DNA of 64,000 bases. Source: Deltaproteobacteria bacterium. Its GTDB lineage: Bacteria; Desulfobacterota; Binatia; HRBIN30; CADEER01. Shown here in pieces: positions 33,981 to 49,114 of the stretch. The notes beneath the pieces were generated by a model. That model had not been told where the DNA came from. It did no database searches and saw only the letters and a list, made by a program, of their open reading frames with translations. Position 1 is the stretch's first letter. Each line of letters opens with the position of its first letter. The position numbers and the translations under genes are program-made. The stretch is taken from positions 325,078-389,077 of the forward strand of contig JAJCZJ010000020.1 of NCBI GenBank assembly GCA_029262455.1, in the 5' to 3' direction.

Positions 33981-34598
33981 GTGTTGTCAATGTTCGATAC
34001 GCCCGCACACCTCGAGCAGCAGACGCGCGAGCAACAGGCCGCAGCCCGGTACTGCGGGCTCGGCTTCAAAAAGGCCACGCTGCCCTCCGAGGTCTTGCAA
34101 CGGTTGCGCCAACACCTGGAAACGAACAGCCGCCGATTCCGCGCCGAGGAGCCCATCGACTACCTCGTCAACCCGGACCCCGGGAAGATTCCGGCCCTTT
34201 ATTTCGAGGACAAAGAATTCAACGCCACCCTAAGTCGCGAGCTACAAGGATTGCACGAAGAGTGGGCCGGAAGGAGTCTGACCGAGTCCGCCTGCTACGG
34301 CATCCGCGTCTATCAACGCGGCAGCTTTCTCTACAACCACGTCGACCACACCGACACACACATCATCAGCTCTTCGATCTGCGTCGACCACCGCCTCGAC
34401 AAGCCGTGGCCCCTCTACGTCGAGGATATCGACGGCAATCCCCACCAGATCGATCTCGACCCTGGCGACATACTGTTCTACGAGGGAGCCCGCCTGCGAC
34501 ACGGCCGTGCCTATCCACTCGAGGGTGACTACTACGCATCCATTTTCGTCCACTATCGACCCGCAAATCTCTGGTCTTCGCGGCTCGTTGGCACCTAG
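33981..34598 (+). CDS. 2OG-Fe(II) oxygenase, prolyl 4-hydroxylase-like
   Basis: YGIRVYQRGSFLYNHVDHTD (HxD) and distal GDILFYEGARLRHGRAYPLEGDYYASIFVHYRP. Lies 4 nt after the upstream stop. Confidence 0.7.
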   Translation: MLSMFDTPAHLEQQTREQQAAARYCGLGFKKATLPSEVLQRLRQHLETNSRRFRAEEPIDYLVNPDPGKIPALYFEDKEFNATLSRELQGLHEEWAGRSLTESACYGIRVYQRGSFLYNHVDHTDTHIISSSICVDHRLDKPWPLYVEDIDGNPHQIDLDPGDILFYEGARLRHGRAYPLEGDYYASIFVHYRPANLWSSRLVGT

Positions 34599-37802: not shown

Positions 37803-38930
37803 ATGATCTTCACGGTTTTCGTCGCACCGGTCGAACCAACGCAACAGTGGCGTGCCGATCTCCTCGAATACTCATGGCGACGCATCAAGCAGAGCGGCGA
37901 ACTGATCCGGCTGGCGCCAACCGCCCCCGGACGCGCACCAGGTAGCAGAGGGAGAGTCGGGAGAACCGTCAAAACGTTCGACTGGAACCCCCACCCGTAC
38001 ACCCAGGACGTGTACGCCGGCTATCAGACAACCGCCGGCGTACTCGAGTGGTTGTTCAACGAGCCGGCCGAAGGAACAGTCCTTTTGCTGGATTCGAGCT
38101 GCATCCTACGCCACCCGGTTACAGCAGAGGTCGAACCAGGCCACGTGCGCGGGTCGTCGTGGCCGGAGATCCCACTTGGCACGGACGGCCCATTCGGCCT
38201 GCATGATGATCTGAAGTTTCTCGAATCCTATTGCGTCAACCGCAAGCTCCCCCTCGCTCCCGTGCGGATGCCGATTTTGATCCACACGGCGGACCTGCGA
38301 AAAATCGCGGCGCGCTGGCTCGAGCTTACGGCGTTGATTCGATCCCATGCCGTAGGCGTTCACGGAAAATACCTTCATGCAGATCGCGTCGCCTACACCG
38401 TCGCCGCCGCCGAATACCGCATCCTCCACACCCTTGACGACCTCGGCACTACGACGTCGGATACCGGCAAAGACGTTCCGATCGTCGACTACAGCACACC
38501 GATCAAGTCCAAACAGGGAGAGATCGTCTGGGACCGAAAGGTCTATCGACCATGGGAGGCAGTCTACACCGAAAATGCGCGCGCAGGCGCAGGCAGAGAC
38601 GTACTCGGGATCCTGAACGAGATGGTGACGCGCCGCGAATCGGGAGCCGAGCTTGCGGCAACACGTCCACAGCGGTGCTACGGGGTGCGGGAAGCACGAA
38701 TTCTCGACGACATTCATCTCGAAGTACCTGGGTGTGCCGACTTGATGTCGCTGAATCAATCCGCGGCTGCCATCTGGGAGCTGTGCAACGGCGAGAACAC
38801 ACTCGCCGAGATCGTCAGCGAGCTCGAGAGACAATTCGACGCGTCACGCGAAACCCTCATGACATCCGTCGAATCGACGGCGAGGGATTTGGAAAGCTCA
38901 GGTGCCATCGAGCTGGAGGAGCTGTTCTGA
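37803..38930 (+). CDS. GT95/GT96-like glycosyltransferase fused to a C-terminal PqqD-like domain
   Basis: IFTVFVAPVEPTQQWRADLLEYSWRRIKQSGELIRL, AGVLEWLFNEPAEGTVLLLDSSCILRHPV, ILIHTADLRKIAARWLELT, ADRVAYTVAAAEYRILH. C-terminus: LMSLNQSAAAIWELCNGENTLAEIVSELERQFD. Confidence 0.6.
   Translation: MIFTVFVAPVEPTQQWRADLLEYSWRRIKQSGELIRLAPTAPGRAPGSRGRVGRTVKTFDWNPHPYTQDVYAGYQTTAGVLEWLFNEPAEGTVLLLDSSCILRHPVTAEVEPGHVRGSSWPEIPLGTDGPFGLHDDLKFLESYCVNRKLPLAPVRMPILIHTADLRKIAARWLELTALIRSHAVGVHGKYLHADRVAYTVAAAEYRILHTLDDLGTTTSDTGKDVPIVDYSTPIKSKQGEIVWDRKVYRPWEAVYTENARAGAGRDVLGILNEMVTRRESGAELAATRPQRCYGVREARILDDIHLEVPGCADLMSLNQSAAAIWELCNGENTLAEIVSELERQFDASRETLMTSVESTARDLESSGAIELEELF
38679..38927 (+). other. PqqD-like domain, copy 2, C-terminal
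   Basis: Last ~82 aa of ORF 37803..38930. Confidence 0.6.
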
Positions 38931-40156
38931 TGGCATCCAAAGCAAAACCAAGCGCCAAAAAGTCCGTGCCGACCACAAAAACAAAGCACGCAGCAAAACG
39001 TGCCAAAGCCTCGGCCAAGAAAACAGCCAAAGCGCCGCCCGGAAAAGCCACGACAGCACGGGCGAAGAAGACCACCAAGACTCCGGCCTCCAAGAGCCCC
39101 AAAACCCGGACCCAAAGGACCCGGGCCCAAAAGCCCCGGGCCCGCAAAGCCGCGCTCAAAGTATCGCAAACGGTGTCGCCCAAAGGATCGCAAACGACTT
39201 CGAAGACGGAGCGAACGACCCCATCGCCTCGCGCAAAGTCGCGGCAGGCCACAAAACAACCCCAGATCTTCGTGTCGATCGCCTCCTACCGCGACCAGTT
39301 TCTTCACTTCACCATCGAGTCGGTGCTCAAACAGGCGACGTACCCAGAACGGTTGACCTTCGGCCTCTGCTGGCAAGCCGACGACACCGAGCAACTCGAT
39401 CAATACCTGCACGATCCGCGTTTCCGCATTCGCAAGTACCCGTACTACGCGAGCCTCGGCTACGGTTGGGCAAGAGCCGAGATCCAAAAACTATACGCCG
39501 GCGAAGAGTACCATCTACTGATCGATTCTCACACGTATCTCGCCAAGGGGTGGGACGAGAATCTGATCGCGCAACTCGAGAGCAAGCCGGGCGAGAAGCC
39601 GCTACTGACGACCAGCTCACCCCCTTTCACCTTCGACAATGACGGCAACGTCGTAATCCCGTGGCAAGGGACCGAACACGACGGCGTGCCGCTGATGAAG
39701 TGCGCACGAATCCAACCGGCAGGGTGGGTCGACATCCAGATGTCCAATGAGCGCAAGTCCACCAAACATCAAACCACCGGATTGGTGTGCTGTAACTTTG
39801 TCTTCACGCACGGGGCTTGGATCCGCGAAGTGCCCGAGGATCCGGCGATGATCAACGCCGGCCACGAGTCAGCCCTTTCGGTTCGTACCTTCACCCACGG
39901 ATACGACATCTACCTGCCCGACGAAATTCAAATCTGGCACCTCGACTACAACAACTACCCGAACGGTGAGCGCAACAAGGTATGGGAAGCAAAGTCCGAC
40001 AGTTGGCAGTCTGAGGGCACCGAGATCATGCTGCGGCGGCTGCAAGCGCTGTTCTACAACCGCGGCGACCGCGCCTCGCTCGGCCGCTACGGACTCGGTC
40101 GATCCCGCACCGTAGCCGACTGGGCGGAGATCACCGGACTCGACCTCAGTGACTGA
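38930..40156 (+). CDS. Lys/Ala/Thr/Pro-rich basic N-terminal extension (~111 aa) fused to a GT60 Gnt1-like (PF11397) glycosyltransferase
   Basis: Inner part of ORF 38552..40156. ATGA overlap with the upstream stop, GGAGGAG SD at 38915-38921. MASKAKPSAKKSVPTTKTKHAAKRAKASAKK..., then QIFVSIASYRDQFL, LLIDSHTY. Confidence 0.65.
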   Translation: MASKAKPSAKKSVPTTKTKHAAKRAKASAKKTAKAPPGKATTARAKKTTKTPASKSPKTRTQRTRAQKPRARKAALKVSQTVSPKGSQTTSKTERTTPSPRAKSRQATKQPQIFVSIASYRDQFLHFTIESVLKQATYPERLTFGLCWQADDTEQLDQYLHDPRFRIRKYPYYASLGYGWARAEIQKLYAGEEYHLLIDSHTYLAKGWDENLIAQLESKPGEKPLLTTSSPPFTFDNDGNVVIPWQGTEHDGVPLMKCARIQPAGWVDIQMSNERKSTKHQTTGLVCCNFVFTHGAWIREVPEDPAMINAGHESALSVRTFTHGYDIYLPDEIQIWHLDYNNYPNGERNKVWEAKSDSWQSEGTEIMLRRLQALFYNRGDRASLGRYGLGRSRTVADWAEITGLDLSD

Positions 40157-41942
40157 CGTCGACTCCGCACTACTGCCAATTCCCCAACCCGAGTGGCGTG
40201 CTTCTTTATCCGGCGACGGCGCGGCAGTTGATGTCCTGATTTTAAGCAAGGACCGCGCCTGCCAACTCGACGGACTGCTGCGCACGATGCGCGCGTTCCT
40301 GACCATCCCACACCGGAAATACGTACTGTACAAGACGTCTAATTTGGCGTTCGAGCGCGGCTACGACATGCTCCGCCGGTGGAATCCCGAGGTCGAGTTC
40401 ATCGACGAGGCGCAAACGTTTCGACAATGCTACCTCGACCTCGTGGCAAGGATCGCCGCCGGGCCTGGTCGCTACTGGATGCCGGTGATGGACGACATGA
40501 TCTTCACTCGCACGTTCACCGCACAGCCACTCATCGACCTCCTCGACACAGACGAGGACGTGCTGGCGATCTCTCTGCGCCTCGGCGAGAACATTACCTA
40601 TTGCTACACCCGAAACGCTCCAACCACACCTCCGGACTTCAGCAACGGACACCGTTGGGAATGGAGAACAGCCAGCCCAGGCTACTGGAACTATCCAATG
40701 TCCGTCGACGCCAACATCTACCGCACGGCGGAAATGGCCGAATACATCCCGACCCTCCAATTCGGCAAGGCTGAAGTCATCGAGGCACGCATGGCCGGGG
40801 TGCCCTTGAACCGCCCCCATATGCTGTGTGAACCGACCCCCAGCGTACTCAATCTCGCGATCAACCGCGTTCAACACACCTTCAAGAATCGGCACGGCAC
40901 AATCACGCCAGAAGCCCTGAACGGCGCTTTCCTCGCGGGTTTCGCGATGGATGTGCGCCCGTTGCTGGGTCGAACCTTCAACGCCTGTCACGTCGAGGTC
41001 GAGCTGTCCTTGGTCCCCGATGCGCGCGAGCGCCCCGGCGCAACGCCCCTCTCTTCGACCGGCTGGAAACCACAGCGAAACGGCGCCGTCGTCGTGACCG
41101 AGAGCCATGCTGTCGTGACGCTCAAGAGGAACGGAACGAAGCTCAAACTCAATCAGAGCGCCGAAGAGATCTGGAAACTGTGCGACGGAACACGAACGCC
41201 CGAGGACATCCAAAACGAGCTCGCGCAACATTTTGACGCAACCCCGCGCCAGCTTCACAGCGGCGTACGAAGCGCCCTGGCGAATTTCATCAATCACGGC
41301 CTTCTCCGTCAGGAACGCCCGGAAGGCGCATACCGCCGCATCGACCTGCGCCAGATTCCCTGCTTCGTGATCAATTGCGAAGCCGATGCTGAGAAGGACA
41401 CGTTGATGAAGCGTCAGCTCGCTGAGCTCGGGATACCGTACGAACGTGTACCCGGGATCGCCGCAAGCCCGGATTGGGTCGGCGTCGCGCTGTCGCACCT
41501 CAAAGTGCTTCGCCTGACCCGCTCGACGACACCCTTCCTGGTGCTCGAGGACGATTGCTTGTTCAACGACCGCTTCCAACCAGTGTGGCAAGTACCGGTC
41601 GAGGCCGACGCCCTGTATCTCGGCGTTTCCGAGTTCGGCCTCGAGACCCCCGGTCACTTCAGCTGGGGCCGCCGGCGCAAGAACCAATGGAGACCCTACG
41701 ACCGGTCCTTCCTCCGCATTTTCAACATGCTCGCACGCCATGCGGTCGTGTACCTTTCCAACGACTACTGCGAGCAAGTCATCCAATCGCAAATCGAAGC
41801 ACTGACGAATCGAAGTTTGCCGTACCCTGGGGACATCGGCTGCGCGATGCTGCAAGCATCGCACGTCGTCCTGACCCCGAACGAACCGATCTGCCGGCAA
41901 ACCGGTCGTGACTCGACCGTGCGTCCGTTGCCGGAGCTCTGA
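40149..41942 (+). CDS. Three-domain protein: GT-A-like domain, central PqqD-like domain, GT25-like domain
   Basis: VDVLILSKDRACQLDGLLRTM; central KLKLNQSAEEIWKLCDGTRTPEDIQNELAQHFD; C-terminal IPCFVINCEADAEKDTLMKRQLAELGIPYERVPGI...FLVLEDDC. Confidence 0.6.
   Translation: MTDVDSALLPIPQPEWRASLSGDGAAVDVLILSKDRACQLDGLLRTMRAFLTIPHRKYVLYKTSNLAFERGYDMLRRWNPEVEFIDEAQTFRQCYLDLVARIAAGPGRYWMPVMDDMIFTRTFTAQPLIDLLDTDEDVLAISLRLGENITYCYTRNAPTTPPDFSNGHRWEWRTASPGYWNYPMSVDANIYRTAEMAEYIPTLQFGKAEVIEARMAGVPLNRPHMLCEPTPSVLNLAINRVQHTFKNRHGTITPEALNGAFLAGFAMDVRPLLGRTFNACHVEVELSLVPDARERPGATPLSSTGWKPQRNGAVVVTESHAVVTLKRNGTKLKLNQSAEEIWKLCDGTRTPEDIQNELAQHFDATPRQLHSGVRSALANFINHGLLRQERPEGAYRRIDLRQIPCFVINCEADAEKDTLMKRQLAELGIPYERVPGIAASPDWVGVALSHLKVLRLTRSTTPFLVLEDDCLFNDRFQPVWQVPVEADALYLGVSEFGLETPGHFSWGRRRKNQWRPYDRSFLRIFNMLARHAVVYLSNDYCEQVIQSQIEALTNRSLPYPGDIGCAMLQASHVVLTPNEPICRQTGRDSTVRPLPEL
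41079..41315 (+). other. PqqD-like domain, copy 3, internal
   Basis: aa 311-389 of ORF 40149..41942. Confidence 0.6.
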
Positions 41943-41977: not shown

Positions 41978-44900
41978 GTGAAAAAGGGCACAATCCACGA
42001 TCTCTTCTCCCGCACCGCTTGCGTCGTGTCCGACAGGCACCGATTCATCTATTTGACGGCGCAAAACGCCACGTCTTCCCTGAAGGCCGAGCTGTCGAAC
42101 GAGCACTGCGGCGGCGTTGTCCTCGCCCGCGCACAGGTGGCTGATAAACTCTGGAACCAATACTTTACGTTCGCCTTCCTGCGCGACCCGCTGACGCGCT
42201 TTCTCTCCGCCTATCAGGAAGTGTCTCTGCACATGGAGCGTGACAAACTCGAACCGCGCCCTTTCGGCCGGATGCCCGACGGCCTCGATCGCTTTCAGGC
42301 ATTTCTCGCGGACGTCGAGCAGAACGGTCCGTGGAACGAGCACATTGCACTCCAGCTAGCCTTCGTCGAGCGCCGAAGAATCGACTTTTGGGGGCTCGTC
42401 GAAACGCTGCAAGACGACTTCCAACAAATCTACACCCGGCTGGGATTGGGGACCTGTCCCGTTCTGCCAAAACGCCGCTCTCGCAGCGGCCGTGAGGAAA
42501 AGGACGGCATCTCGCGCTTCGCCTTCCATCCGGAGGACCTCGATGCGACGACAATTGAGCGCATCTACGACCTCTACCGTGAGGACGTCTTGCTGATTCG
42601 AGCGGTTCGCCCCGACGCACCTGAAATGCAGCCGCACTCAACCCGTGCCGCACCGCCCCCCGGAATGGTGCAGGTGGCGATCGCCCTGGCCAACGGCGGC
42701 GAATACTCCCTCGAACTTCCGCCCGGCCAACCAGAGCTGGGCGCTCTGCAAGCTGTGGTATCACCACAACAATCCGATGGACGTTTTCTCGGCCCGCAAG
42801 TTCTGCAGGTTCCACTGCGTGGTGGCAATTCCGCGCTGACGTTTTCCACGCAGCACCTCGTTCGTCTCGAGCTACGCCCCCCCGACGCCCGAGAACTGCG
42901 CCGAATCGAGGCGCCGGCCACCGGCACGGGCAACTCCGGAGTGAATCTAATAAACGTCGGGAACAAGCGGCCGCCAACCGAGGACCCATCGAGCAATATC
43001 GACGAGGCGCATCTCGGTGGCTACATTCGTGCGGCCAATACACCGATTCTCCACAGCGCCGCAGGCCCACACGGGGACCGGGGAACCTGGAATCCGCTGC
43101 TGTGGCGTTGGGCAATCGAAGATCTCGACGTGCGATCAGTGATCGATATCGGATGCGGCGAGGGACACGCCGCCGGATTTTTCTCCGACGGCGGGTGTGA
43201 AGTGCTCGCGCTCGATGGCAGCCTTCAAGCGCGCTATTCCAGCGTTGTTCCAGATCGCCACGTCGTACACGACTTCGTCGAGGGACCTTTCGTCCCAGAG
43301 AAAAGCTTCGACATGGCCTGGACCTGCGAGTTCGTCGAACACGTCGAGGCGCGTTTTCTCCACAATTTCCTGGCTACGATCGCATCGAGCCGCAAGTACG
43401 TGATGATGACGTTCGCCAGCCCGACACAAACAGGCTGGCATCACGTCAATTGCCAAGAACAGGGTTACTGGGTCGATCAGTTGGGACGCCTCGGGTTTCG
43501 CCTGGACGACGATCTAACCGAGAGAGGCCGAGCCTTGGCTCACTCTCATTTTCGCGAACGTGGCCTGGTCTTCGTCCGGCACCATCGAAAAGGCGAGTCA
43601 TCGAAGTCCACAGAACCGTCGCTGCGCGCGACTGCCGAGAGTCACTGTCTCGACCCGCTGCCGGTCCAATCCATGCAGGTCGCACAGCGCGAGAGCGATG
43701 CCTTCTACCTGTTTGTCGACATCTTCGTGCATCCGACCGCACCGAGAATCGTGGCGATCTCACCACCCTATGGCGAAGACTGGAATCCTAACGTTGTCGG
43801 CATCGACTACGATGCCGTCGACCTTGTATTCGGTGACATACGCGTCCGCGGCCGCTGCCTGCGGCACCGTCTCGACTCCTGGGAGCCTTGCATGCTTCTC
43901 GAGTTCGAGGACGAAGACCTAACAGAGCGCATTCGGGCCAACGACGAGATCAACGTCACGATCGAGGCCGGCTCGCATTCGTCGTCCTTCGTCCTGACGA
44001 CCCGCCCAGCGCCAGCCTACGATGTCGCAATGAGCCTCGTCGTACGCAACGAAAACCGCTGGATCCGCACGTTTCTCGACTACTACCTCGACTGCGTCAA
44101 AGCCGACCACGTCTTCATCTACGACAACGGAACGTCGGAACAAGACCAGCTGCTTTCCATTCTTCACCCGTACCGAGAGCGCGGGCAAGTGACGTACATC
44201 CCGTGGGATTTTCGCTGGCGCAACCGCATCGACCGCAAGATGATCGGCCAACCGACACAGGAGGCTCACTCCCTTGCAAGATTCGCAAACACCGGGTGGA
44301 TCGGCTTTCTCGACATCGACGAGTTCCTGCGCTTGCCGCACAGCACCCTGCCACAATTTCTCGCTCGCTTCGCGTCCGCGGAGGTCGACGGACTCTCGTT
44401 CGGTATCCGGTGGTTTTCTTACGAGGGCCCGCTTGCACTCGATGAGATTACGAGTGTGCCACTGCAATTCCTCCACTCGCGCCGCAATGAGCTCGGCCGA
44501 AAACGGCAGAAGTTCTTCGTCAAAGGCGGCGGCTCGAAGTTTCTTCGCTTGCATTGGCTCGAAGACGGAGGTCGCGAACTGCCCATCGACGACACCGAGA
44601 TCTACTTTCACCACTACGATCAACGTCCCGGCCGTTTCGAAGAAGGAAAGCAAATCGGAGGAGCGCGCGACGAATACATGCTGCGCTTCGCCGACCAGCT
44701 CTCGCGCCCCGAGCGGCACAGAGCCCCTCTAACCGAGAGAGGATGGATCACCCACATCAACTCTTCGATCGAACGCGCCGAACGCGACACCTCCAAACTC
44801 ACCCCGGAAGTCCTCGCCGTCGACGGCATGTGCGGGCGCTACACCCGTCACTTCTACAACAACCTCTGCAGCTTCGGAGGATGCCGCTACCTCGAGATCG

Positions 44901-45385
44901 GCAGCTATCACGGGGCCAGCACCTGCGCGGCAATCTTCGGCAACGACGTATCCGCCGTGTGCATCGACAATTGGACACAGTTTCACGGCAAGCGAAGCCG
45001 CTTCGAGGATGCCCTACGACGCTTCCGAGGAGATCGCTCGGTCCGAGTCATCGAGCAAAACTGCTTCGAAGTAGACGCCTCAAGCCTCGGCCCATTCGAC
45101 ATCTATCTCTACGATGGCGACCACAGCCAGCAGAACCAGTACCGAGCCTTGCAGCACTTCGTTCAGACGCTGGCCAAGCTCGCCGTAGTCGTCATCGACG
45201 ACTGGAATCGTCGGCATATCCGTCGGGGGACACAGGACGCGATTCGGGACCTCGAACTCGATGTAATCTTCGACCGAGAGATCCTACTGCCAACCGACCA
45301 GACGGCGGATGAAAACCGTGACGCTGGAGCGCGAACTTGGTGGAACGGACTCTACATCATGCTCGTTCGCAGTAGAACGCAGTAG
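41978..45385 (+). CDS. 1135-aa five-module enzyme: sulfotransferase, shared ~75-aa domain, class I SAM-MTase, GT92/Glyco_tranf_2_4-like, second SAM-MTase (Methyltransf_24-like)
   Basis: FTFAFLRDPLTRFLSAY; MVQVAIALANGGEYSLELPP...LQVPLRGGNSALTF; VIDIGCGEGHAAGF; SLVVRNENRWIRTFLDYYL...FIYDNGTS...FLDIDEFL; YLEIGSYHGAST...IYLYDGDHS...VVIDDWN. GTG start has a weak SD. Confidence 0.65.
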   Translation: MKKGTIHDLFSRTACVVSDRHRFIYLTAQNATSSLKAELSNEHCGGVVLARAQVADKLWNQYFTFAFLRDPLTRFLSAYQEVSLHMERDKLEPRPFGRMPDGLDRFQAFLADVEQNGPWNEHIALQLAFVERRRIDFWGLVETLQDDFQQIYTRLGLGTCPVLPKRRSRSGREEKDGISRFAFHPEDLDATTIERIYDLYREDVLLIRAVRPDAPEMQPHSTRAAPPPGMVQVAIALANGGEYSLELPPGQPELGALQAVVSPQQSDGRFLGPQVLQVPLRGGNSALTFSTQHLVRLELRPPDARELRRIEAPATGTGNSGVNLINVGNKRPPTEDPSSNIDEAHLGGYIRAANTPILHSAAGPHGDRGTWNPLLWRWAIEDLDVRSVIDIGCGEGHAAGFFSDGGCEVLALDGSLQARYSSVVPDRHVVHDFVEGPFVPEKSFDMAWTCEFVEHVEARFLHNFLATIASSRKYVMMTFASPTQTGWHHVNCQEQGYWVDQLGRLGFRLDDDLTERGRALAHSHFRERGLVFVRHHRKGESSKSTEPSLRATAESHCLDPLPVQSMQVAQRESDAFYLFVDIFVHPTAPRIVAISPPYGEDWNPNVVGIDYDAVDLVFGDIRVRGRCLRHRLDSWEPCMLLEFEDEDLTERIRANDEINVTIEAGSHSSSFVLTTRPAPAYDVAMSLVVRNENRWIRTFLDYYLDCVKADHVFIYDNGTSEQDQLLSILHPYRERGQVTYIPWDFRWRNRIDRKMIGQPTQEAHSLARFANTGWIGFLDIDEFLRLPHSTLPQFLARFASAEVDGLSFGIRWFSYEGPLALDEITSVPLQFLHSRRNELGRKRQKFFVKGGGSKFLRLHWLEDGGRELPIDDTEIYFHHYDQRPGRFEEGKQIGGARDEYMLRFADQLSRPERHRAPLTERGWITHINSSIERAERDTSKLTPEVLAVDGMCGRYTRHFYNNLCSFGGCRYLEIGSYHGASTCAAIFGNDVSAVCIDNWTQFHGKRSRFEDALRRFRGDRSVRVIEQNCFEVDASSLGPFDIYLYDGDHSQQNQYRALQHFVQTLAKLAVVVIDDWNRRHIRRGTQDAIRDLELDVIFDREILLPTDQTADENRDAGARTWWNGLYIMLVRSRTQ

Positions 45386-45412: not shown

Positions 45413-45892
45413 TTACTCCTCGCCCTTGGTTTCTTTTCCCACGGGAGCCGGTCGGCCCTCGTCGTCATCCGAAGCAATGAGCTTTTTAGCACCGAAGCCA
45501 AAGAGCGCCGCTGCGGCCACAGCCGCGGCGCCGCCTGAAACCACAGGCGCATCGACTGCTGCCTGAAAGGCGGTCGGAACCGCCGTACTGGGAAGGCCCG
45601 GATCGAGGACCGTCGGGACCTGCGTCGGTGCGGCAGTAGGATTGAGGCAAAGTGACGGCGAATTGGTACATTGCGTCGTCCCAGCTTCGACAGGCGCGAC
45701 GAATCCAAGATCAGACGAGACCGGTACCGATAAGATCACCGGCGTTACCCAGGCAATCTTGAGCGCCGAGCGCCTTGAAATATCGTCGGAAAAAGTCGGC
45801 CGCGCCGCCTTCCCGTCCGTCACCAGCTCGCCCCGCAGCCGCTCGATCTCCTCGAGAAGCTCCTTTTTCGTCTTCGTTCCGTCACCCGCCAT
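45413..45892 (-). CDS. Pro/Thr-rich small protein, paralog of 31963..32469, with a C-terminal hydrophobic anchor and acidic tail; candidate substrate/precursor 2
   Basis: ORF 45413..45997 trimmed to ATG 45892, which has a GGAGAGGG SD upstream. MAGDGTKTKKELLEEIERLRGEL...DISRRSALKIAWVTPVILSVPV, P/T/S/A-rich middle, GGAAAVAAAALFGFGAKKLIASDDDEG. Confidence 0.65.
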   Translation of the reverse strand: MAGDGTKTKKELLEEIERLRGELVTDGKAARPTFSDDISRRSALKIAWVTPVILSVPVSSDLGFVAPVEAGTTQCTNSPSLCLNPTAAPTQVPTVLDPGLPSTAVPTAFQAAVDAPVVSGGAAAVAAAALFGFGAKKLIASDDDEGRPAPVGKETKGEE

Positions 45893-46048
45893 TATAGACC
45901 CTCTCCAATGCTGCCGCTGCCATAGCAAGAATCCGACCCAAATCCCAGGCCTGCGACATCGATTTCCTGGATTCGCGGTGAGACACCCCCTGCGCACTCG
46001 TAGCAGCGGCTCGGCAGCCTATCCCGATCAAGTGGGAGAATGGGCGTG

Positions 46049-46744
46049 TCATCCCACCCCGCAGACCTCCCGACCCGTGGCTTCACGATAGTAGGACACA
46101 TCCTCGGCGCAAATGCGCAAAGCCAGTTCTCGCGTCTCCCCATCATAGAAAAGCTCCGGAACCGGCATCCCGTGCCGGCGAAGCCAGCCCGGGGAACGAT
46201 CTGTCGCGCGCTCTCGAATCGTCACGTCCTGCGGCGAAGGATTCTCGTGCAGGACCGGCGCGGAAACCGAAACTCTCTCGTTTAAGCTCGCCAGCCCCCG
46301 CGAGAGATCTTCCACCGCAACGACTTCGTCGAAGTCTATCTGATGCGTGTTTCGGACCTGCGGCACCAAATGGTGCTGGGGTTCGATCCCGCGGGTCTGA
46401 ACATGCTGCAAGGTGTAGAGGAACTTGCGAAAGCTCTTGTCCCGCAGCGAGAGCTTCCGGTCATCGTCGGCAAAGCACCACAACGTTTCATCGCGCACGA
46501 CCCACAAGGTGTAGAACCCGACGAGTCGGCGAAGCGGATCGCGCACAAAGAAGACCTTCCAATAGTCACGACAGCGGTCGATGTCGCCGTGCCAAATCAG
46601 GAAAGCGTCAAGGTCTTCGACCGGTTGCTTCGTCTTCTCCTCAATCGCTGCCTTGCACCACGATCGGATGCTGTTCGAACCACACTTGGGACTATAGACG
46701 GCAAGTACTTCGAGTGGATCCGCGGCTAGGAAGAAGTGGGCCAT
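46049..46744 (-). CDS. Sulfotransferase (Sulfotransfer_2-like)
   Basis: MAHFFLAADPLEVLAVYSPKCGSNSIRSW (5'-PSB-like), KVFFVRDPLRRLVGFY (3'-PB-like). The frame stays open upstream through the heptamer repeat to GTG 46900, so an N-terminal HESPVTS-repeat extension cannot be excluded. Confidence 0.65.
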   Translation of the reverse strand: MAHFFLAADPLEVLAVYSPKCGSNSIRSWCKAAIEEKTKQPVEDLDAFLIWHGDIDRCRDYWKVFFVRDPLRRLVGFYTLWVVRDETLWCFADDDRKLSLRDKSFRKFLYTLQHVQTRGIEPQHHLVPQVRNTHQIDFDEVVAVEDLSRGLASLNERVSVSAPVLHENPSPQDVTIRERATDRSPGWLRRHGMPVPELFYDGETRELALRICAEDVSYYREATGREVCGVG

Positions 46745-46759
46745 GGGGATTCTATGTGT

Positions 46760-46878
46760 GTGATTGGTGACTGGTGATTCGTGACTGGTGACTGGTGATT
46801 CGTGACTGGTGACTGGTGATTCGTGACTGGTGACTGGTGATTCGTGACTGGTGACTGGTGACTGGTGACTGGTGATTG
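46760..46878. repeat. 17 tandem heptamers GTGAYTS, with a 21-bp super-repeat GTGACTGGTGACTGGTGATTC
   Basis: Counted by hand from the sequence: 119 bp = 17 x 7, lying between the GT60-like stop (46893) and the sulfotransferase ATG (46744). Confidence 0.9.
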
Positions 46879-46892
46879 GTTGGGCAAAAGTT

Positions 46893-47900
46893 CTACACAC
46901 CGGCGCCGGCCTGGTACTCTTCGAAAGTGACGCAGCTCTCCCAGTCGGACGGCGACCGGATTGTCACTGGGTCGGGGTTCGCGCCACTAAACGCATCCGG
47001 ATGCGCGCGTTTGGCTCGGAAGTCAAAGCCCGAAAAAATCTCGTAGTCCCGCAAGGTCCGCACCCGACCGAAACCGTACGGTCCGGGCAGCGGTGATTCA
47101 TAGCTCGAGAGCAGCTGTTCCAAACGGGCAAACGCCTCGCGGTTGCGGCGCTCGACGACGTCTTCCCCCTGCTCCCAATGGCGCCGCGGCGGCCCGTCGT
47201 TGTGCTGCATGTGCCATGCCACGACTTCCGTTGGAAGAAAGAAGTCGTACCCCCAGGTGTACGAACGAATGGTCACATTCAGCTCTTCGCCCCAATAGTA
47301 TTGTCCGGGATCCTGCGGCACCTCGACATTCCAGATGCCGCGCGAGAACGCGAAGTTGCCGTTGACAAACCGTGTACGCCCCGGCTTCTTGACGTTGGGG
47401 GCTCCAAAGTCGAACCACGGCGCCCAATGGTCCGACGCGCTCCAGCCGCTCACCTTGGTCGTCGGCACACCCATTTCAGTACGACGCTGCGGCACACCAT
47501 CCTCGTCGTACCAGAATAGGGGAGCATTCATGCTGAGAACGGGTTTCTCACTGGGGAGAGCCTCCAGCATCTCGATCAGCCGCGCGTCCCAGTCGGGCTC
47601 GAGCTTCATATGGGAATCGATCTGCAGAGTGTAGGGTTCACCTCGCCACAGAGACTGCGCAATATTACGCGCCCAGGGGCCGCCCTGGCTTGCCGCAATC
47701 GTCGTATCCACAAACCGAAACCGCGGATCTCGGCGAAAATCCTCCAACGGCACCGGCGCTTTTGGGTCACGCTGCCAGCAAATTCCGAAACGCAGCGAAT
47801 CTGGAGCACTTGCCGTTTCGATCGCGTCACGCAAGGTGCGCGGCAACTCGGGGTCCGTGTACGACGCGATCGCGACGAAGATCTGAGGGTGGGAAGCCAC
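46893..47900 (-). CDS. GT60 Gnt1-like (PF11397) glycosyltransferase, paralog of 38930..40156 without the basic extension
   Basis: MASHPQIFVAIASYTDPEL, LQIDSHMKL, and the C-terminal GFGRVRTLRDYEIFSGFD parallels GLGRSRTVADWAEITGLD. Confidence 0.65.
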   Translation of the reverse strand: MASHPQIFVAIASYTDPELPRTLRDAIETASAPDSLRFGICWQRDPKAPVPLEDFRRDPRFRFVDTTIAASQGGPWARNIAQSLWRGEPYTLQIDSHMKLEPDWDARLIEMLEALPSEKPVLSMNAPLFWYDEDGVPQRRTEMGVPTTKVSGWSASDHWAPWFDFGAPNVKKPGRTRFVNGNFAFSRGIWNVEVPQDPGQYYWGEELNVTIRSYTWGYDFFLPTEVVAWHMQHNDGPPRRHWEQGEDVVERRNREAFARLEQLLSSYESPLPGPYGFGRVRTLRDYEIFSGFDFRAKRAHPDAFSGANPDPVTIRSPSDWESCVTFEEYQAGAGV

Positions 47901-48115: not shown

Positions 48116-49114
48116 TCAGACCTTGTGGGCGAGCCCCTTTTCCCGCGCCGTGTACTGATCGAAGATCCAGGCGTAGGTTTTCTCGATACCGTCGCGCAAT
48201 GAAGTAGACGGAGCCCAACCGAGCTTCTCAATGATCATCGTGTTGTCGCTGCTCCGCCCGTCGACACCCTTCGGAGCATCCAGTTTATAGGTTCGCTCGA
48301 GCCGAATTCCGGCAATCTCTTCGACGACATCGACCAGATCATTGATGGACACTGTCTCACTTGAGCCGAGATTGATCGGGTCCGAGACACTGCTCTCCAT
48401 CAGCCGACGAATTCCCTCGATGCAGTCATCGATGTACGTAAACGAGCGACCCTGGTTTCCATCGCCCCAGATTTCAATGCGATGATCGCCGCGGACTTTT
48501 GCTTCGATCACCTTTCGACAGATCGCCGCGGGTGCCTTCTCGCGACCACCGTCCCAGGTCCCATGAGGCCCATACACATTGTGGAAGCGAGCCACTCGCG
48601 TCCGCATCCCAAAGTCCTCCATGAAATGGCGGCACATACGCTCGGAGAACAGCTTCTCCCACCCGTACCCATCTTCCGGCATCGCCGGGTACACGTCGTC
48701 CTCTTTCAAGGGAGTGACATCATAGCCACGTTGCTTGTCCGCCCTGTATACGCATGCCGACGACGCGTAGAAAAAGCTCTCGGTGCCGCACACATTCGCA
48801 GCTTCCAACAGATGGGTATTGATCAAGACGTTGAGCATGCACAGAGCCTTGTTGCTCTCGATGAAGCCCATGCCGCCCATATCACAGGCCATCTGGTACA
48901 CGACTCCGACCCCCTCGCAGACATCCATGCACGGACTCCGCAACCGCAGATCCAGCTGCCGATTGTCGACGTCGTCGAAGCACTGGTACCACTCTTCGAT
49001 CGGTTTGAGATCGACCGCGCGTAGGTTGGGCTCACCACGCTGGCGCAAGTCGGCAACAATCTGCCCCCCGATAAACCCGCCCGCGCCTGTGACTAGAACA
49101 GTAGAAGCAACCAT
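48116..49114 (-). CDS. GDP-mannose 3,5-epimerase-like extended SDR
   Basis: VTGAGGFIGG, ACDMGGMGFI, FFYASSACVY, RFHNVYGPHGTWDGGREKAPAAICRK, EIWGDGNQGRSFTYIDDC, GVDGRSSDNTMIIEKLGWAP. Collinear with plant GME as I recall it. Confidence 0.8.
   Translation of the reverse strand: MVASTVLVTGAGGFIGGQIVADLRQRGEPNLRAVDLKPIEEWYQCFDDVDNRQLDLRLRSPCMDVCEGVGVVYQMACDMGGMGFIESNKALCMLNVLINTHLLEAANVCGTESFFYASSACVYRADKQRGYDVTPLKEDDVYPAMPEDGYGWEKLFSERMCRHFMEDFGMRTRVARFHNVYGPHGTWDGGREKAPAAICRKVIEAKVRGDHRIEIWGDGNQGRSFTYIDDCIEGIRRLMESSVSDPINLGSSETVSINDLVDVVEEIAGIRLERTYKLDAPKGVDGRSSDNTMIIEKLGWAPSTSLRDGIEKTYAWIFDQYTAREKGLAHKV

What the first reader, a model, noticed from the sequence alone, without database searches (positions are those of the whole stretch)
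45413..45892. Candidate substrate 2: paralog with a membrane anchor, terminating the convergent operon
SEEN: MAGDGTKTKKELLEEIERLRGEL...DISRRSALKIAWVTPVILSVPV aligns residue-for-residue with the N-terminal part of 31963-32469. The middle is P/T/S/A-rich (NPTAAPTQVPTVLDPGLPSTAVPTA). The end differs: a hydrophobic GGAAAVAAAALFGFGA, then KKL, then an acidic tail DDDEGRPAPVGKETKGEE. Its stop lies 27 nt from the stop of the 1135-aa enzyme gene on the opposite strand. INFERENCE: one soluble and one membrane-anchored substrate share the same leader, which argues that the conserved N-terminal 60 aa is a functional recognition and export module rather than chance.
Basis: partly seen in the sequence, partly recalled or inferred. 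Interest (0 to 1): 0.75.

Follow-up and report, generated by a model that had tools for sequence, protein, structure and literature searches.

The report
Anchored precursor of a bacterial glycoprotein
This small gene encodes a membrane-anchored, proline/threonine-rich protein whose conserved 60-residue leader looks like both an export signal and a docking tag for neighbouring sugar-adding enzymes, marking an undescribed, widespread bacterial system that seems to make mucin-like glycoproteins.

Summary
Window 45413-45892 (-) is a real 159-aa gene. It is a paralog of 31963-32469 (BLASTP E=2e-21; the leader alone gives E~5e-16). It has a conserved C-terminal hydrophobic anchor and an acidic tail.

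The leader defines an unannotated family: 74 representatives in 1.84 billion proteins, with no Pfam or NCBIfam model. Its layout is a heptad helix (KTKxELLxELExLRxxL), a variable linker, [ST]RRxxL, WVAPVILSxP and usually AxA. This matches a twin-arginine-type signal peptide with an unusually long N-region. xxPT tetrapeptide repeats follow.

In about 50 loci from Myxococcota, Binatia, Gammaproteobacteria and others, the precursor lies in one conserved cassette. The cassette holds two GT60 (Skp1 GlcNAc-transferase-like) enzymes, a prolyl-4-hydroxylase-like oxygenase and three PqqD/RRE-domain proteins, often with sulfo- and methyltransferases. One RRE protein models as a lasso-type RRE fused to a GT8-like glycosyltransferase.

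Most loci carry one precursor. The anchored type is one of four C-terminal classes, and the two-precursor layout is seen only in the window's clade.

Best reading, by inference only: a leader-guided, cytoplasmically hydroxylated and glycosylated, Tat-exported, tail-anchored mucin-like glycoprotein. No paper describing it was found.

The parts
45413..45892 (-). sub2: class-B (membrane-anchored) precursor gene, 159 aa plus stop
   Evidence: ORF and translation. Identical product in public assemblies. Leader HMM E=3e-20. Ortholog in L001 at 46-49% identity.
45899..45906 (-). Shine-Dalgarno-like GGAGAGGG, 6 nt upstream of the ATG
   Evidence: Read directly from the sequence.
45818..45877 (-). Leader helix, residues 6-25 (TKTKKELLEEIERLRGELVT), with heptad hydrophobics L12/I16/L19/L23
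   Evidence: AF2 helix 9-25 with pLDDT about 92. L12 and E15 invariant; K7, L19 nearly invariant.
45782..45817 (-). Variable linker, residues 26-37
   Evidence: Variable in length and sequence across the family.
45758..45778 (-). Twin-arginine motif S39-R-R-S-A-L-K45
   Evidence: RR in 86/88 members; -1 is T or S in 81; +4 is L in 73.
45719..45757 (-). Conserved hydrophobic core I46-V58 (IAWVTPVILSVPV). It is the h-region of the signal and a candidate RRE recognition strand.
   Evidence: W48 and P51 invariant; V52, L54, P57 nearly so. Kyte-Doolittle 2.1 over 11 aa. The same motif sits next to a discrete PqqD protein in an unrelated cluster, L029.
45683..45718 (-). c-region S59-A70 with a candidate signal-peptidase site V68-E-A70 / G71
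   Evidence: An AxA lies within 8-34 aa after the Trp in 67/88 members. The site in sub2 is inferred.
45545..45682 (-). Predicted mature exported domain G71-P116. It is P/T/S/A-rich with xxPT units (NPT, APT, VPT, VPT), two Cys, and the conserved PTAF motif.
   Evidence: P85, P89, P93, P106, P116 nearly invariant. PT spacing of 4 in 333 of the successive PT pairs counted among 599 PT dipeptides family-wide. Disordered in the AF2 model.
45488..45544 (-). C-terminal Gly/Ala-rich hydrophobic anchor V117-A135
   Evidence: 19 residues, Kyte-Doolittle 1.79. Conserved as [VI]P[AG]L[SG]xxG plus 15-22 hydrophobic residues in 23 class-B sequences.
45416..45487 (-). Basic stop-transfer (KK) and acidic tail K136-E159, predicted cytoplasmic
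   Evidence: 2-5 K/R in the first six residues after the anchor, then a 13-34 aa S/D/E/G-rich tail, in all class-B members.
31963..32469 (+). sub1: class-D paralogous precursor (168 aa) in the canonical slot upstream of the RRE-glycosyltransferase
   Evidence: Orthologs P0017/L032-L034 at 52% identity. It lacks their C-terminal ...AFPAAAP..ETALFSFDD motif.
32612..33976 (+). RRE (PqqD fold) fused to a GT8-like GT-A glycosyltransferase
33981..34598 (+). 205-aa conserved cassette protein with an HxD...H motif (possible 2OG oxygenase)
   Evidence: Conserved in all cassettes. No Pfam, NCBIfam or PDB hit. The motif was read by eye.
34641..36644 (+). 667-aa enzyme with weak O-FucT-like and HprK-related-kinase-like regions
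   Evidence: Pfam O-FucT E=1.3e-5, below the gathering score. TIGR04352 E=1.3e-6 for aa 500-570, below cutoff. Conserved in the cassettes.
36641..37630 (+). Prolyl-4-hydroxylase-like 2OG-Fe(II) oxygenase with an ~80-aa N-terminal domain of unknown function
   Evidence: Pfam 2OG-FeII_Oxy_3 E=3.9e-15. PDB 6t8m, prolyl 4-hydroxylase, E=4.2e-5. N-terminal domain alignment A7.
37803..38930 (+). 375-aa protein with a C-terminal PqqD/RRE domain
   Evidence: Pfam PqqD E=1.9e-13. Conserved in the cassettes.
38930..40156 (+). GT60 (PF11397) glycosyltransferase with a basic K/A/T-rich N-terminal tail. Its start overlaps the upstream stop codon.
   Evidence: Pfam GlcNAc E=5e-44. Start position.
40149..41942 (+). 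597-aa protein with an internal PqqD/RRE domain and a weak GT25-like region
   Evidence: Pfam PqqD E=3.6e-11; GT25 E=0.0038, below cutoff.
41978..45385 (+). 1135-aa sulfotransferase / methyltransferase / GT92 / methyltransferase fusion, convergent with sub2
   Evidence: Pfam. The same convergent arrangement occurs in L002.
46049..46900 (-). Sulfotransferase directly upstream of sub2 in the same operon
   Evidence: Pfam Sulfotransfer_2 E=4.6e-8. The order sulfotransferase then precursor also occurs in L002, L010, L024 and L069.
46893..47900 (-). GT60 (PF11397) glycosyltransferase, the gene that most often precedes the precursor in other genomes
   Evidence: Pfam E=1.1e-43. 64-70% identical orthologs lie upstream of the precursor in most loci.
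48116..49114 (-). NAD-dependent sugar-nucleotide epimerase/dehydratase, first gene of the minus-strand operon
   Evidence: Pfam Epimerase E=4.4e-37. Recurs in the cassettes.

Best explanation
Sub2 is the precursor of a small mucin-like or proteoglycan-like membrane glycoprotein. It is made by a conserved, previously undescribed cassette.

**The leader (residues 1-70) has two proposed jobs.**
- Docking tag. A heptad helix, plus the very conserved RR...WVxPVIL segment, are read in the cytoplasm by the PqqD/RRE domains fused to three tailoring enzymes. A second shared ~80-aa domain on other enzymes may also take part.
- Export signal. It is a twin-arginine-type signal peptide ([ST]RRxxL, moderately hydrophobic core, AxA).

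**Proposed sequence of events.**
1. While the leader is held, soluble cytoplasmic enzymes modify the xxPT-rich core. These are a prolyl-4-hydroxylase-like oxygenase, two GT60 enzymes, a GT8-like RRE-glycosyltransferase and further glycosyl-, sulfo- and methyltransferases.
2. Modification probably starts with Hyp- or Thr-linked GlcNAc, which is then extended.
3. The modified protein is exported, most likely by Tat, and the leader is removed after V68-E-A70.
4. The Gly/Ala-rich C-terminal helix (V117-A135) stays in the inner membrane. KK and the acidic tail stay in the cytoplasm. The result is a type-I, tail-anchored glycoprotein.

**Shown versus inferred.**
- Shown: gene reality, paralogy, family, motif conservation, synteny, the RRE and GT-A folds by model, and the absence of signal peptides on the enzymes.
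- Inferred: leader-RRE binding, the chemistry of the modifications, the Tat route, cleavage, topology and biological role.
For: **Gene and paralogy.** Real, conserved gene and paralogy.

**Family.**
- 74 representatives at E<=1e-3 in an exhaustive profile search; nearly all are 100-230 aa with the leader at the N-terminus.
- RR in 86/88, T/S at -1 in 81, L at +4 in 73.
- Median uncharged run after RR is 23 aa; AxA present in 67/88.
- AF2 gives a confident helix at 9-25, a short helix at 40-47 and a disordered remainder.

**Synteny.**
- The precursor sits between GT60 and the RRE-glycosyltransferase in 20 of 24 genome loci.
- In 3 more loci the contig ends at the precursor, but GT60 is present.
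- Cassette genes were found wherever the metagenome contigs extended far enough beyond the precursor (L076, a weak leader match, is the exception).

**RRE evidence.**
- Three Pfam PqqD hits above the gathering score.
- A profile hit to the lasso RRE TbiB1, E=1.2e-4.

**Cytoplasmic location and export route.**
- No signal peptide or clear transmembrane segment on the tailoring enzymes.
- No ABC transporter or leader peptidase inside the one cassette scanned in full with Pfam (L020).

**Anchor.** Anchor, basic cluster and acidic tail are conserved in 23 class-B sequences.

**Dual use of the h-region.**
- The RR..WxAPVxL motif recurs next to a discrete PqqD protein in a different cluster, L029. 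This fits the h-region being read by RREs.
- Precedent for such dual use: Tat signal peptides bound by NapD and TorD (PMC3712460, PMC3316669).
Against: - No experiment exists for any step.
- The RR motif lies 40-60 residues from the N-terminus, outside the range of typical Tat signals. Neither TIGR01409 nor the Pfam TAT_signal model was reported at E<=1.
- The h-region is far more conserved than an ordinary signal peptide. It may therefore be only a recognition strand or a true transmembrane segment.
- The residue after RR is usually acidic, and +3 is A/V rather than F.
- Sub2 has few PT units and its cleavage site (VEA) is only a guess.
- The AF2 model did not predict the anchor as a helix (pLDDT about 50).
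- Proteins glycosylated in the cytoplasm with small glycans, such as HMW1 and AIDA-I-type autotransporters, are known to pass through Sec. Tat is therefore not required by logic alone.
- Three YfhO-like GT-C membrane proteins lie nearby in the window. They could glycosylate outside the cytoplasm, although they are absent from other loci.
- Which residue is modified (Pro, Thr or Ser) is unknown.
Confidence: 0.6

Rival explanations
1. Hairpin membrane protein, not a cleaved Tat substrate. The RR plus WVTPVILSVPV segment is an uncleaved signal-anchor inserted by Sec/YidC. The N-terminal helix stays in the cytoplasm and permanently recruits the RRE-bearing enzymes to the membrane. The PT-rich loop is periplasmic and is glycosylated there, for example by GT-C enzymes using lipid-linked sugars built by the soluble glycosyltransferases.
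For: - The h-region is conserved at the residue level, which is unusual for cleavable signals.
- RR lies 40-60 aa from the N-terminus.
- Curated Tat models do not hit.
- Three YfhO-like GT-C proteins lie 21-29 kb upstream in the window.
- A positive-inside distribution fits an N-in/C-in hairpin.
Against: - The hydrophobic core is only about 13 residues and holds two conserved prolines, so it is short for a stable transmembrane helix.
- AxA follows it in 67/88 members.
- The YfhO genes are not in any other locus.
- The cassette has no flippase or initiating phosphoglycosyl transferase in L020.
- A prolyl hydroxylase and RRE-fused glycosyltransferases imply direct action on the polypeptide in the cytoplasm.
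Confidence: 0.2
2. Conventional RiPP. The leader serves only for RRE recognition, a protease removes it, and a small modified glycopeptide is released as a secreted natural product. The resemblance to an export signal is incidental.
For: - Short ORF beside RRE-containing enzymes with a conserved leader and a variable core.
- RRE-glycosyltransferase fusions have been flagged as candidate new RiPP clusters (PMC7470986, PMC12710340).
- L029 pairs the same motif with a discrete PqqD protein and an ABC transporter.
Against: - Cores are 90-280 aa of repetitive, disordered sequence, far larger than typical RiPP cores.
- A conserved transmembrane anchor with a cytoplasmic tail makes no sense for a released peptide.
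- No leader peptidase or dedicated transporter in the cassette.
- The near-invariant [ST]RR plus hydrophobic core plus AxA pattern is hard to explain without export.
Confidence: 0.08
3. Not a substrate at all. It is instead a small membrane scaffold or regulator (anti-sigma-like or chaperone-like) that organises or controls the glycosylation enzymes. The PT-rich region is only a spacer.
For: - Sub2 has only about five PT units.
- The coiled-coil-like N-terminal helix resembles dimerisation helices at the N-termini of sensor proteins (P0075 matched the helix part only).
- The acidic cytoplasmic tail could be an interaction module.
Against: - In most genomes the leader-bearing protein is the only small ORF in the cassette. 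It carries long xxPT arrays, up to about 300 aa, typical of a modification target.
- Several C-terminal classes share one leader, which fits interchangeable cargo rather than a fixed regulator.
- No sigma factor or regulator is conserved in the cassette.
Confidence: 0.05

Closest known systems
Tat signal peptides that are also bound by dedicated cytoplasmic chaperones (NapA/NapD, TorA/TorD, DmsA/DmsD 'Tat proofreading')
   Same: - [ST]RRxxL motif, a moderately hydrophobic core and AxA.
- In those systems the signal peptide, including its hydrophobic core, is bound in the cytoplasm by a maturation factor until the cargo is finished (PMC3712460, PMC3316669).
- That matches the proposed dual use here.
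   Different: - The binding modules here are PqqD/RRE domains fused to tailoring enzymes, not REMP chaperones.
- The cargo is a disordered repeat protein to be glycosylated, not a cofactor enzyme.
- The n-region is 40-60 aa and carries a conserved heptad helix.
- Curated Tat models do not detect it.
RiPP biosynthesis guided by RiPP recognition elements (lasso peptide B1 proteins TbiB1/TfuB1, PqqD)
   Same: - Conserved leader with a variable core.
- Several enzymes in one cluster each carry an RRE.
   Different: - The core is a 90-280 aa repetitive protein, not a short peptide.
- The chemistry is hydroxylation, glycosylation, sulfation and methylation.
- No leader protease or exporter is present.
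- The leader resembles a general export signal.
- RRE-glycosyltransferase fusions have only been listed bioinformatically (PMC7470986, PMC12710340).
Cytoplasmic Skp1 hydroxyproline glycosylation pathway of Dictyostelium and Toxoplasma (PhyA, Gnt1/GT60, PgtA, AgtA/GT77, Gat1/GT8)
   Same: - The same enzyme families occur together and are predicted cytoplasmic.
- P4H-like oxygenase: best PDB hit is a prolyl 4-hydroxylase.
- GT60 twice.
- GT77-like and GT11 fucosyltransferase genes nearby.
- GT60 also includes the T. cruzi mucin Thr alpha-GlcNAc transferase (PMC6939170).
   Different: - The substrate is not Skp1 but a leader-bearing PT-repeat protein destined for export.
- Enzymes are targeted by RRE domains.
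- Sulfo- and methyltransferases are added.
- The modified residue and the glycan are unknown.
Eukaryotic mucin-like and proteoglycan core proteins with a membrane anchor (classical arabinogalactan proteins, syndecans). This is an analogy only.
   Same: Signal peptide, Pro/Ala/Ser/Thr-rich disordered glycosylation domain, C-terminal hydrophobic anchor with small-residue motifs, a short charged cytoplasmic tail, and sulfotransferases in the pathway.
   Different: - No homology.
- Modification is predicted before export, in the cytoplasm.
- The context is a bacterial inner membrane.
PEP-CTERM / IPTL-CTERM exosortase sorting signals
   Same: The class-B C-terminus has the same three-part style: short motif ([VI]P[AG]L[SG]), Gly/Ala-rich hydrophobic helix, basic cluster.
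   Different: - The PEP motif is absent.
- A 13-34 aa acidic tail follows the basic cluster, so the signal is not at the extreme C-terminus.
- No NCBIfam sorting-domain hit.
- No exosortase in the cassette.

Membership tests
Twin-arginine (Tat) signal peptide | [ST]-R-R-x-hydrophobic-L-K motif at the boundary of the n- and h-regions | tested here: met
   Sub2 has S39-R-R-S-A-L-K45. Family-wide: RR in 86/88, T/S at -1 in 81, A/V at +3, L at +4 in 73.
Twin-arginine (Tat) signal peptide | Uncharged, moderately hydrophobic h-region of about 12-20 residues followed by an AxA peptidase site | tested here: met
   Median uncharged run is 23 aa. AxA lies within 8-34 aa after the Trp in 67/88. Sub2 has IAWVTPVILSVPV, then VEA.
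Twin-arginine (Tat) signal peptide | Motif close to the N-terminus (RR within about the first 35 residues) and detection by curated Tat models | tested here: not met
   RR is at residues 40-41 in sub2 and at 40-60 in relatives. No TIGR01409 or Pfam TAT_signal hit at E<=1.
Twin-arginine (Tat) signal peptide | Export depends on TatABC and is blocked by RR-to-KK | not testable with these tools
   Requires genetics or biochemistry.
RiPP precursor recognised by RRE domains | Small precursor gene clustered with enzymes that carry a PqqD-like RRE | tested here: met
   [not shown]
RiPP precursor recognised by RRE domains | Conserved leader, hypervariable core | tested here: met
   Leader dN/dS is about 0.16-0.21 while the middle is saturated. 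Alignment A5 is conserved only in the leader and the PT positions.
RiPP precursor recognised by RRE domains | Physical binding of the leader to the RRE | not testable with these tools
   No complex prediction or binding assay was available.
RiPP precursor recognised by RRE domains | Dedicated leader protease and/or exporter in the cluster; small peptide product | tested here: not met
   None in the window cassette or in the fully scanned L020 cassette. Cores are 90-280 aa.
Skp1-type hydroxyproline O-glycosylation | Cytoplasmic prolyl 4-hydroxylase together with a GT60 GlcNAc transferase | tested here: met
   2OG-FeII_Oxy_3 E=3.9e-15 and PDB prolyl 4-hydroxylase 6t8m E=4.2e-5. PF11397 at E=5e-44 and 1.1e-43. 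No signal peptides on the enzymes.
Skp1-type hydroxyproline O-glycosylation | Substrate is Skp1; Hyp-GlcNAc linkage demonstrated | tested here: not met
   The co-clustered small ORF is a PT-repeat protein with no Pfam family, so no Skp1 domain. The linkage chemistry cannot be tested here.
PEP-CTERM/exosortase sorting signal (class-B C-terminus) | PEP motif, transmembrane helix and basic cluster at the extreme C-terminus | tested here: not met
   The motif is [VI]P[AG]L[SG], not PEP. A 13-34 aa acidic tail follows. No NCBIfam hit.
Tat-dependent C-tail-anchored inner-membrane proteins (HybO/HyaA/FdnH type; topology class, not homology) | N-terminal twin-arginine signal plus a single C-terminal transmembrane helix with a cytoplasmic C-terminus | tested here: inconclusive
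   The sequence pattern fits: RR signal, 19-aa hydrophobic stretch, KK, acidic tail. The AF2 model gives no helix there. No topology predictor or experiment was available.

The most novel reading that the evidence does not exclude
**Reading.** The cassette is a bacterial hydroxyproline/threonine O-glycoprotein ('bacterial mucin or proteoglycan') pathway.
- A twin-arginine signal peptide doubles as a RiPP-type leader.
- RRE domains on the tailoring enzymes hold the export signal until the PT-repeat core has been hydroxylated, glycosylated, sulfated and methylated in the cytoplasm.
- Tat then exports the finished glycoprotein.
- Interchangeable C-terminal modules decide whether the product is tail-anchored (class B, sub2) or released (the other three classes).

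**Evolutionary corollary.** The shared enzyme set is P4H, GT60, a GT8/Gat1-like enzyme, and in this window also GT77-like and fucosyltransferase genes. The cassette would be the prokaryotic counterpart, and possibly the source, of the protist Skp1 glycosylation toolkit.
Probability: 0.3. Interest if true: 0.9.

Novelty: new variant of a known kind. Interest (0 to 1): 0.78.

Why it matters
- **A new use for RRE recognition.** If the reading is right, RRE-based leader recognition, so far tied to small peptide natural products, would be shown to build full-length secreted or membrane glycoproteins.
- **Quality control of export.** It would give a second, enzyme-borne form of Tat signal-peptide 'proofreading'.
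- **Reach.** It would reveal a widespread mucin- or proteoglycan-like component of Gram-negative envelopes. The lineages include Myxococcota, Binatia, marine Halieaceae, Lysobacterales, Acidobacteriota and Nitrotoga.
- **Evolution.** It would provide a bacterial relative of the eukaryotic Skp1 hydroxyproline glycosylation enzymes.
- **Testability.** Two cultured strains carry the cassette: Luminiphilus syltensis NOR5-1B and Elongatibacter sediminis CH-27. The hypothesis can therefore be tested directly.
- **Engineering.** The leader could become a portable tag for programmable cytoplasmic glycosylation followed by export.

Tried and rejected
- **Family libraries.** Pfam and NCBIfam scans of sub2 and sub1 gave only sub-threshold noise.
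- **Word-indexed homology search.** A search with sub2 found only itself and one ortholog. The exhaustive profile search was needed to see the family.
- **Sub1-type copy in L001.** None was found in the 20.8 kb held. There is only a short PT-rich stretch next to a Y1 transposase.
- **Truncated sub1 C-terminus.** The in-frame sequence after the sub1 stop looked by eye like a remnant of the class-D C-terminus. A shuffle test gave p of about 0.1-0.26, so the idea is not supported.
- **Lipoprotein idea.** The Cys residues near the mature N-termini were considered as a lipobox and rejected. The contexts (TTQC, APGC) do not fit.
- **PEP-CTERM membership.** Rejected for the anchor.
- **YfhO, TPR and Cys-rich genes as core components.** Rejected. 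None was found by tblastn in the other loci tested. A Cys-rich disintegrin-like gene does recur, by precomputed Pfam, next to the class-D precursor in L034, and an unannotated 805-aa gene holds that position in L032/L033.
- **PDB sequence searches.** No hits for GT60_335, the 205-aa protein or the shared 80-aa domain.
- **Structure prediction.** It was repeated with database homologs.
- **Terminators.** The scan found nothing in the 27-nt convergent gap.
- **Literature.** Eight searches found no description of this system.
- **Source organism.** It could not be identified. The genome scan did not return the source contig.
Full report
**1. The observation**

- The ATG at 45892 lies 6 nt after GGAGAGGG.
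- A longer GTG-initiated reading (45997) is excluded. All relatives start with M-[SA]-[DG]-x-x-K-T-K, and public gene calls give the same 159-aa product.
- The stop codon of the convergent 1135-aa gene ends at 45385 and the sub2 stop occupies 45413-45415, so the gap is 27 nt.
- BLASTP against 31963-32469 ('sub1') gives 39% identity over 112 residues, E=2e-21, with composition-based statistics.
- The first 62 residues alone, which are not low-complexity, give E~5e-16 against the six-frame translated window. No third copy exists.
- Nei-Gojobori estimates give leader dN/dS of about 0.16 against the ortholog in L001 and about 0.21 against sub1, while the middle region is saturated. dS is near saturation, so these values are rough.

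**2. The leader defines a real, unannotated family**

Neither protein hits any Pfam or NCBIfam model. A word-indexed search found only sub2 itself and one ortholog, P0002.

An exhaustive profile search with the three leaders against 1.84 billion representatives found 74 proteins at E<=1e-3, of which 21 were at E<=1e-10. Almost all are 100-230 aa with the match at the N-terminus.

The consensus runs as follows:
- M-S-D-x-x-K-T-K-x-[EQ]-L-[LI]-x-E-[LI]-E-x-L-R-x-x-L, with hydrophobic residues at heptad spacing 12/16/19/23;
- a 15-25 residue variable acidic/Gly/Ser linker;
- [ST]-R-R-[ED]-[AV]-L-x-x-W-V-A-P-V-I-L-S-[VI]-P;
- usually an A-x-A about 10-25 residues later;
- then arrays of xxPT. The gap between successive PT dipeptides is 4 in 333 cases, the commonest spacing by far, among 599 PT dipeptides.

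Among 88 non-redundant members:
- RR is present in 86;
- the preceding residue is T or S in 81;
- +4 is Leu in 73;
- AxA is present in 67.

An AF2 model of sub2 built with the family alignment gives a confident helix at 9-25 (pLDDT about 92) and a short helix at 40-47. The rest is disordered.

**3. C-terminal classes**

The family splits by C-terminus.
- **Class A** ends ...PTAFPTAAPxVIPVELSEFEI[SD]. It occurs in Halieaceae, Luminiphilus, Elongatibacter and Lysobacterales.
- **Class B**, the sub2 type, has four parts:
  - the motif [VI]P[AG]L[SG]xxG;
  - a 15-22 residue Gly/Ala-rich hydrophobic stretch (Kyte-Doolittle 1.3-2.1);
  - 2-5 Lys/Arg within six residues after it;
  - a 13-34 residue S/D/E/G-rich acidic tail.
  
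  It occurs in Binatia and other lineages; 23 sequences were aligned.
- **Class C** ends ...AGRCIxAPT...PTLGMxxAPDSRP..GFVALGSARA. It occurs in Myxococcota.
- **Class D**, the sub1 type, has GTVxPGCPTM after the signal and ends ...AFPAAAPxPRxETALFSFDD. It is seen in P0017 and in L032-L034.

The membrane anchor is therefore a conserved alternative module, not a peculiarity of this window. Window sub1 stops just before the class-D terminal motif. A possible remnant after its stop codon is not statistically supported.

**4. Genomic context**

| Genes, in order | Coordinates (strand) | Evidence |
|---|---|---|
| sub1 | 31963-32469 (+) | |
| PqqD-domain enzyme | 32612-33976 (+) | |
| 205-aa protein | 33981-34598 (+) | no Pfam family found |
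| O-FucT-like / kinase-like enzyme | 34641-36644 (+) | |
| 2OG-Fe(II) oxygenase | 36641-37630 (+) | |
| 375-aa protein, C-terminal PqqD | 37803-38930 (+) | |
| GT60 | 38930-40156 (+) | |
| PqqD + GT25-like enzyme | 40149-41942 (+) | |
| 1135-aa sulfotransferase/methyltransferase/GT92/methyltransferase fusion | 41978-45385 (+) | |
| epimerase, GT60, sulfotransferase, sub2 | 48116-49114, 46893-47900, 46049-46900, 45413-45892 (-) | |

- **Genome scan.** Scanning one genome per species with the leader pattern gave 26 loci, including the cultured Luminiphilus syltensis NOR5-1B and Elongatibacter sediminis CH-27.
- **Metagenome scan.** It gave 41 more loci.
- **Cassette order.** tblastn with the window's enzymes shows one conserved cassette: GT60, optionally a sulfotransferase, the precursor, the RRE enzyme, the 205-aa protein, the O-FucT-like enzyme, the P4H-like oxygenase, the x-PqqD protein and a second GT60. 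A PqqD-GT25 enzyme and sulfo-/methyltransferases may follow.
- **Genome loci.** Of 24 with the full leader, 20 have the RRE enzyme in the locus, almost always directly after the precursor. Three more end at the precursor but have GT60 upstream. One, L023, is an orphan next to tig-clpP-clpX-lon.
- **Metagenome loci.** They repeat the pattern wherever flanks exist.
- **Family size.** The RRE-enzyme family has at least 182 sequence clusters, named only 'PqqD family protein' or hypothetical. They include Acidobacteriota and Ca. Nitrotoga.

**5. One precursor or two**

Most loci have a single precursor. Class-B precursors occupy the canonical slot in L037-40, L042, L050 and L054.

The window's clade is different.
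- In L032/L033 and L034 (70-74% identical RRE enzyme), a class-D precursor lies in the canonical slot. In L034 it follows a Cys-rich disintegrin-like gene, as in the window. In L032/L033 an unannotated 805-aa gene holds that position.
- Class-B genes of this clade lie after GT60, with or without the sulfotransferase, and converge on another gene. These are L001, L002 and L036. In L001 that gene is the PqqD-GT25 gene that ends the main operon. In L002 it is the C-terminus of the 1135-aa enzyme. In L036 it is a cut, unidentified gene.

The window therefore looks like the ancestral unit split in two. Sub2 keeps the link 'GT60, sulfotransferase, precursor'. Sub1 keeps the link 'precursor, RRE enzyme'.

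L001 has no sub1-type gene in the sequence held, only a PT-rich scrap beside a transposase. Whether L032-L034 also carry a class-B copy could not be checked.

**6. What the enzymes are**

- **Pfam.** The three PqqD hits exceed Pfam's gathering score.
- **Profile search.** A profile of the RRE enzyme hits the lasso-peptide RRE TbiB1 (E=1.2e-4) and PqqD in the PDB.
- **Model.** Its AF2 model (pLDDT 85) has a beta3-alpha3 N-terminal domain.
- **Oxygenase.** The best PDB match of the 329-aa oxygenase is a prolyl 4-hydroxylase (6t8m, E=4.2e-5).
- **GT60.** PF11397 (GT60) is the family of the Skp1 Hyp-GlcNAc transferase and of the T. cruzi mucin Thr-GlcNAc transferase (PMC6939170).
- **Location.** None of the tailoring enzymes has a signal peptide or a convincing transmembrane segment. 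Their cofactors (NDP-sugars, PAPS, SAM, 2-oxoglutarate) are cytoplasmic; this last point is established knowledge.
- **Export genes.** The fully scanned cassette of L. syltensis contains no ABC exporter or leader peptidase.

**7. Mechanism proposed**

1. The leader docks the precursor onto the RRE-bearing enzymes in the cytoplasm.
2. The xxPT core is hydroxylated and O-glycosylated, then further decorated.
3. The twin-arginine signal directs export, probably through Tat. Tat accepts bulky, pre-modified cargo.
4. Signal peptidase cuts after AxA (VEA70 in sub2).
5. In class B the Gly/Ala-rich helix remains in the inner membrane with the acidic tail in the cytoplasm.

The residue-level conservation of the h-region (W48, P51, V52, L54, P57) is unusual for a signal peptide. 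It is best explained by a second constraint, namely binding by the RREs.

Two points support this.
- The same RR..WxAPVxL motif, without the N-terminal helix, precedes a discrete PqqD protein in an unrelated Rhodothermales cluster, L029.
- Tat signal peptides are known to be bound, hydrophobic core included, by dedicated cytoplasmic maturation factors (PMC3712460, PMC3316669).

All of these steps are inferred. Points against the Tat reading:
- RR lies 40-60 residues from the N-terminus.
- Curated Tat models do not fire.
- The anchor is not helical in the AF2 model.
- Small cytoplasmic glycans are known to pass through Sec.

**8. Comparison with known systems, and novelty**

The system works like a hybrid of three things:
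- RRE-guided RiPP maturation;
- Tat signal-peptide proofreading;
- the cytoplasmic Skp1 hydroxyproline-glycosylation pathway.

The product is architecturally analogous to anchored mucins, arabinogalactan proteins or syndecans. It fails membership tests for a classical RiPP (no protease or exporter, large core), for canonical Tat signals (position, model detection), for Skp1 glycosylation (different substrate) and for PEP-CTERM signals.

RRE-glycosyltransferase fusions have been noted only as unassigned clusters (PMC7470986, PMC12710340). Eight full-text searches found no description of this leader family or cassette.

I classify it as a new variant of known kinds. Its components are familiar, but the combination and the substrate class appear to be undescribed.

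**9. Verdict**

- The interpretation (shared recognition-and-export leader; one anchored and one non-anchored substrate) is supported in silico. Three refinements apply: sub2 belongs to its own GT60-sulfotransferase operon; the anchored form is one of four C-terminal classes; the two-precursor layout is clade-specific.
- Confidence in the full mechanistic model is about 0.6. Confidence that sub2 is a substrate of the neighbouring enzymes is higher, about 0.85.
- Interest is 0.78.

Noticed in passing
window 36641-36955 (+), 29403-29696 (+), 42650-42967 (+); also L020:14389-14700 and the P4H N-termini of all cassettes: An ~80-aa domain (IxVRLxLxGG...LxLxEDAxEL..LF...FxQLPLDGG....F...QLVSIxTRPP) sits at the N-terminus of the P4H-like oxygenase in every cassette. 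In this window it is also in the GT77-like enzyme and inside the 1135-aa fusion. It has no Pfam or PDB match and could be a second substrate-docking module alongside the RREs.
   Followed up: partly
window 16733-18856, 18846-21008, 21936-24116 (+): Three paralogous YfhO-like (GT-C fold) membrane proteins lie just upstream of the cluster. They were not found within 10 kb of the precursor in other loci, so they are probably not core, but they could add extracytoplasmic sugars in this organism.
   Followed up: partly
window 46760-46880 (-): A 21-nt tandem repeat (5.8 copies, 96% matches) encodes HESPVTS heptads at the 5' end of the sulfotransferase ORF. The true start may be the internal ATG at 46744, which would put the repeat between GT60 and the sulfotransferase.
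   Followed up: partly
window 30674-31942 (+): A Cys-rich, disintegrin-like secreted protein ends ...HAPTLSPGGLTITVLILALIGLLAMGRAVLRKN, a sorting-signal-like tail. A disintegrin-like gene recurs immediately upstream of the class-D precursor in L034. In L032/L033 an unannotated 805-aa gene holds that position.
   Followed up: partly
window 32467-32560 (+): Sub1 ends about 22 residues before the conserved C-terminal motif of its orthologs (AFPAAAP..ETALFSFDD). In-frame sequence after two stops (SSAVSPQFG*ETAVAFFRG) looks like a remnant by eye but is not significant by shuffling (p about 0.1-0.26).
   Followed up: yes
L029:9881-11546 (Rhodothermales MAG JAWLHQ010000008.1): A different small protein carries VTRRAILKAGWVAPVVLAVPL but no N-terminal helix, with a Gly/Ser/Lys/Asp/Tyr-rich core. 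It is followed by a discrete 102-aa PqqD protein and a P-loop kinase-like protein, with an ABC transporter on the opposite strand about 1.7 kb further on. This is a second cluster type using the same RR-W-x-A-P-V motif.
   Followed up: partly
window 34641-36644 (+), residues 500-570: The O-FucT-like 667-aa enzyme has a weak match to HprK-related kinase A (TIGR04352, E=1.3e-6, far below cutoff). This hints at a fused kinase domain and possible phosphorylation of the substrate.
   Followed up: no
window 38930-39230 (+): The second GT60 enzyme starts with about 100 residues of Lys/Ala/Thr-rich basic low-complexity sequence. Its ATG overlaps the stop of the upstream PqqD gene (TGATG), which suggests translational coupling.
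   Followed up: no
L011:9471-10333; L048; L049:8687-9549: Tandem duplicated class-C precursor genes, two leader-bearing ORFs side by side, occur in a Myxococcales MAG and in related metagenome contigs. Multiple precursors per locus have therefore arisen more than once.
   Followed up: no
P0018 (450 aa, metagenome protein): A sulfotransferase domain similar to the N-terminus of the 1135-aa enzyme is called as one ORF with a class-A-like precursor (internal MSDERKSKKELLEEL...). This is either a natural fusion or a missed stop or start.
   Followed up: no
L001:7979-10058 and 19826-20693: In the closest relative's contig the epimerase and GT60 genes upstream of the class-B precursor appear frameshifted, which could reflect sequencing errors or decay. 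A Y1 (IS200-like) transposase sits where a sub1-type gene would be expected.
   Followed up: partly
L020:18545-20137 (-): A gingipain-like Peptidase_C25 gene abuts the end of the Luminiphilus syltensis cassette on the opposite strand. Its relevance is unknown.
   Followed up: no
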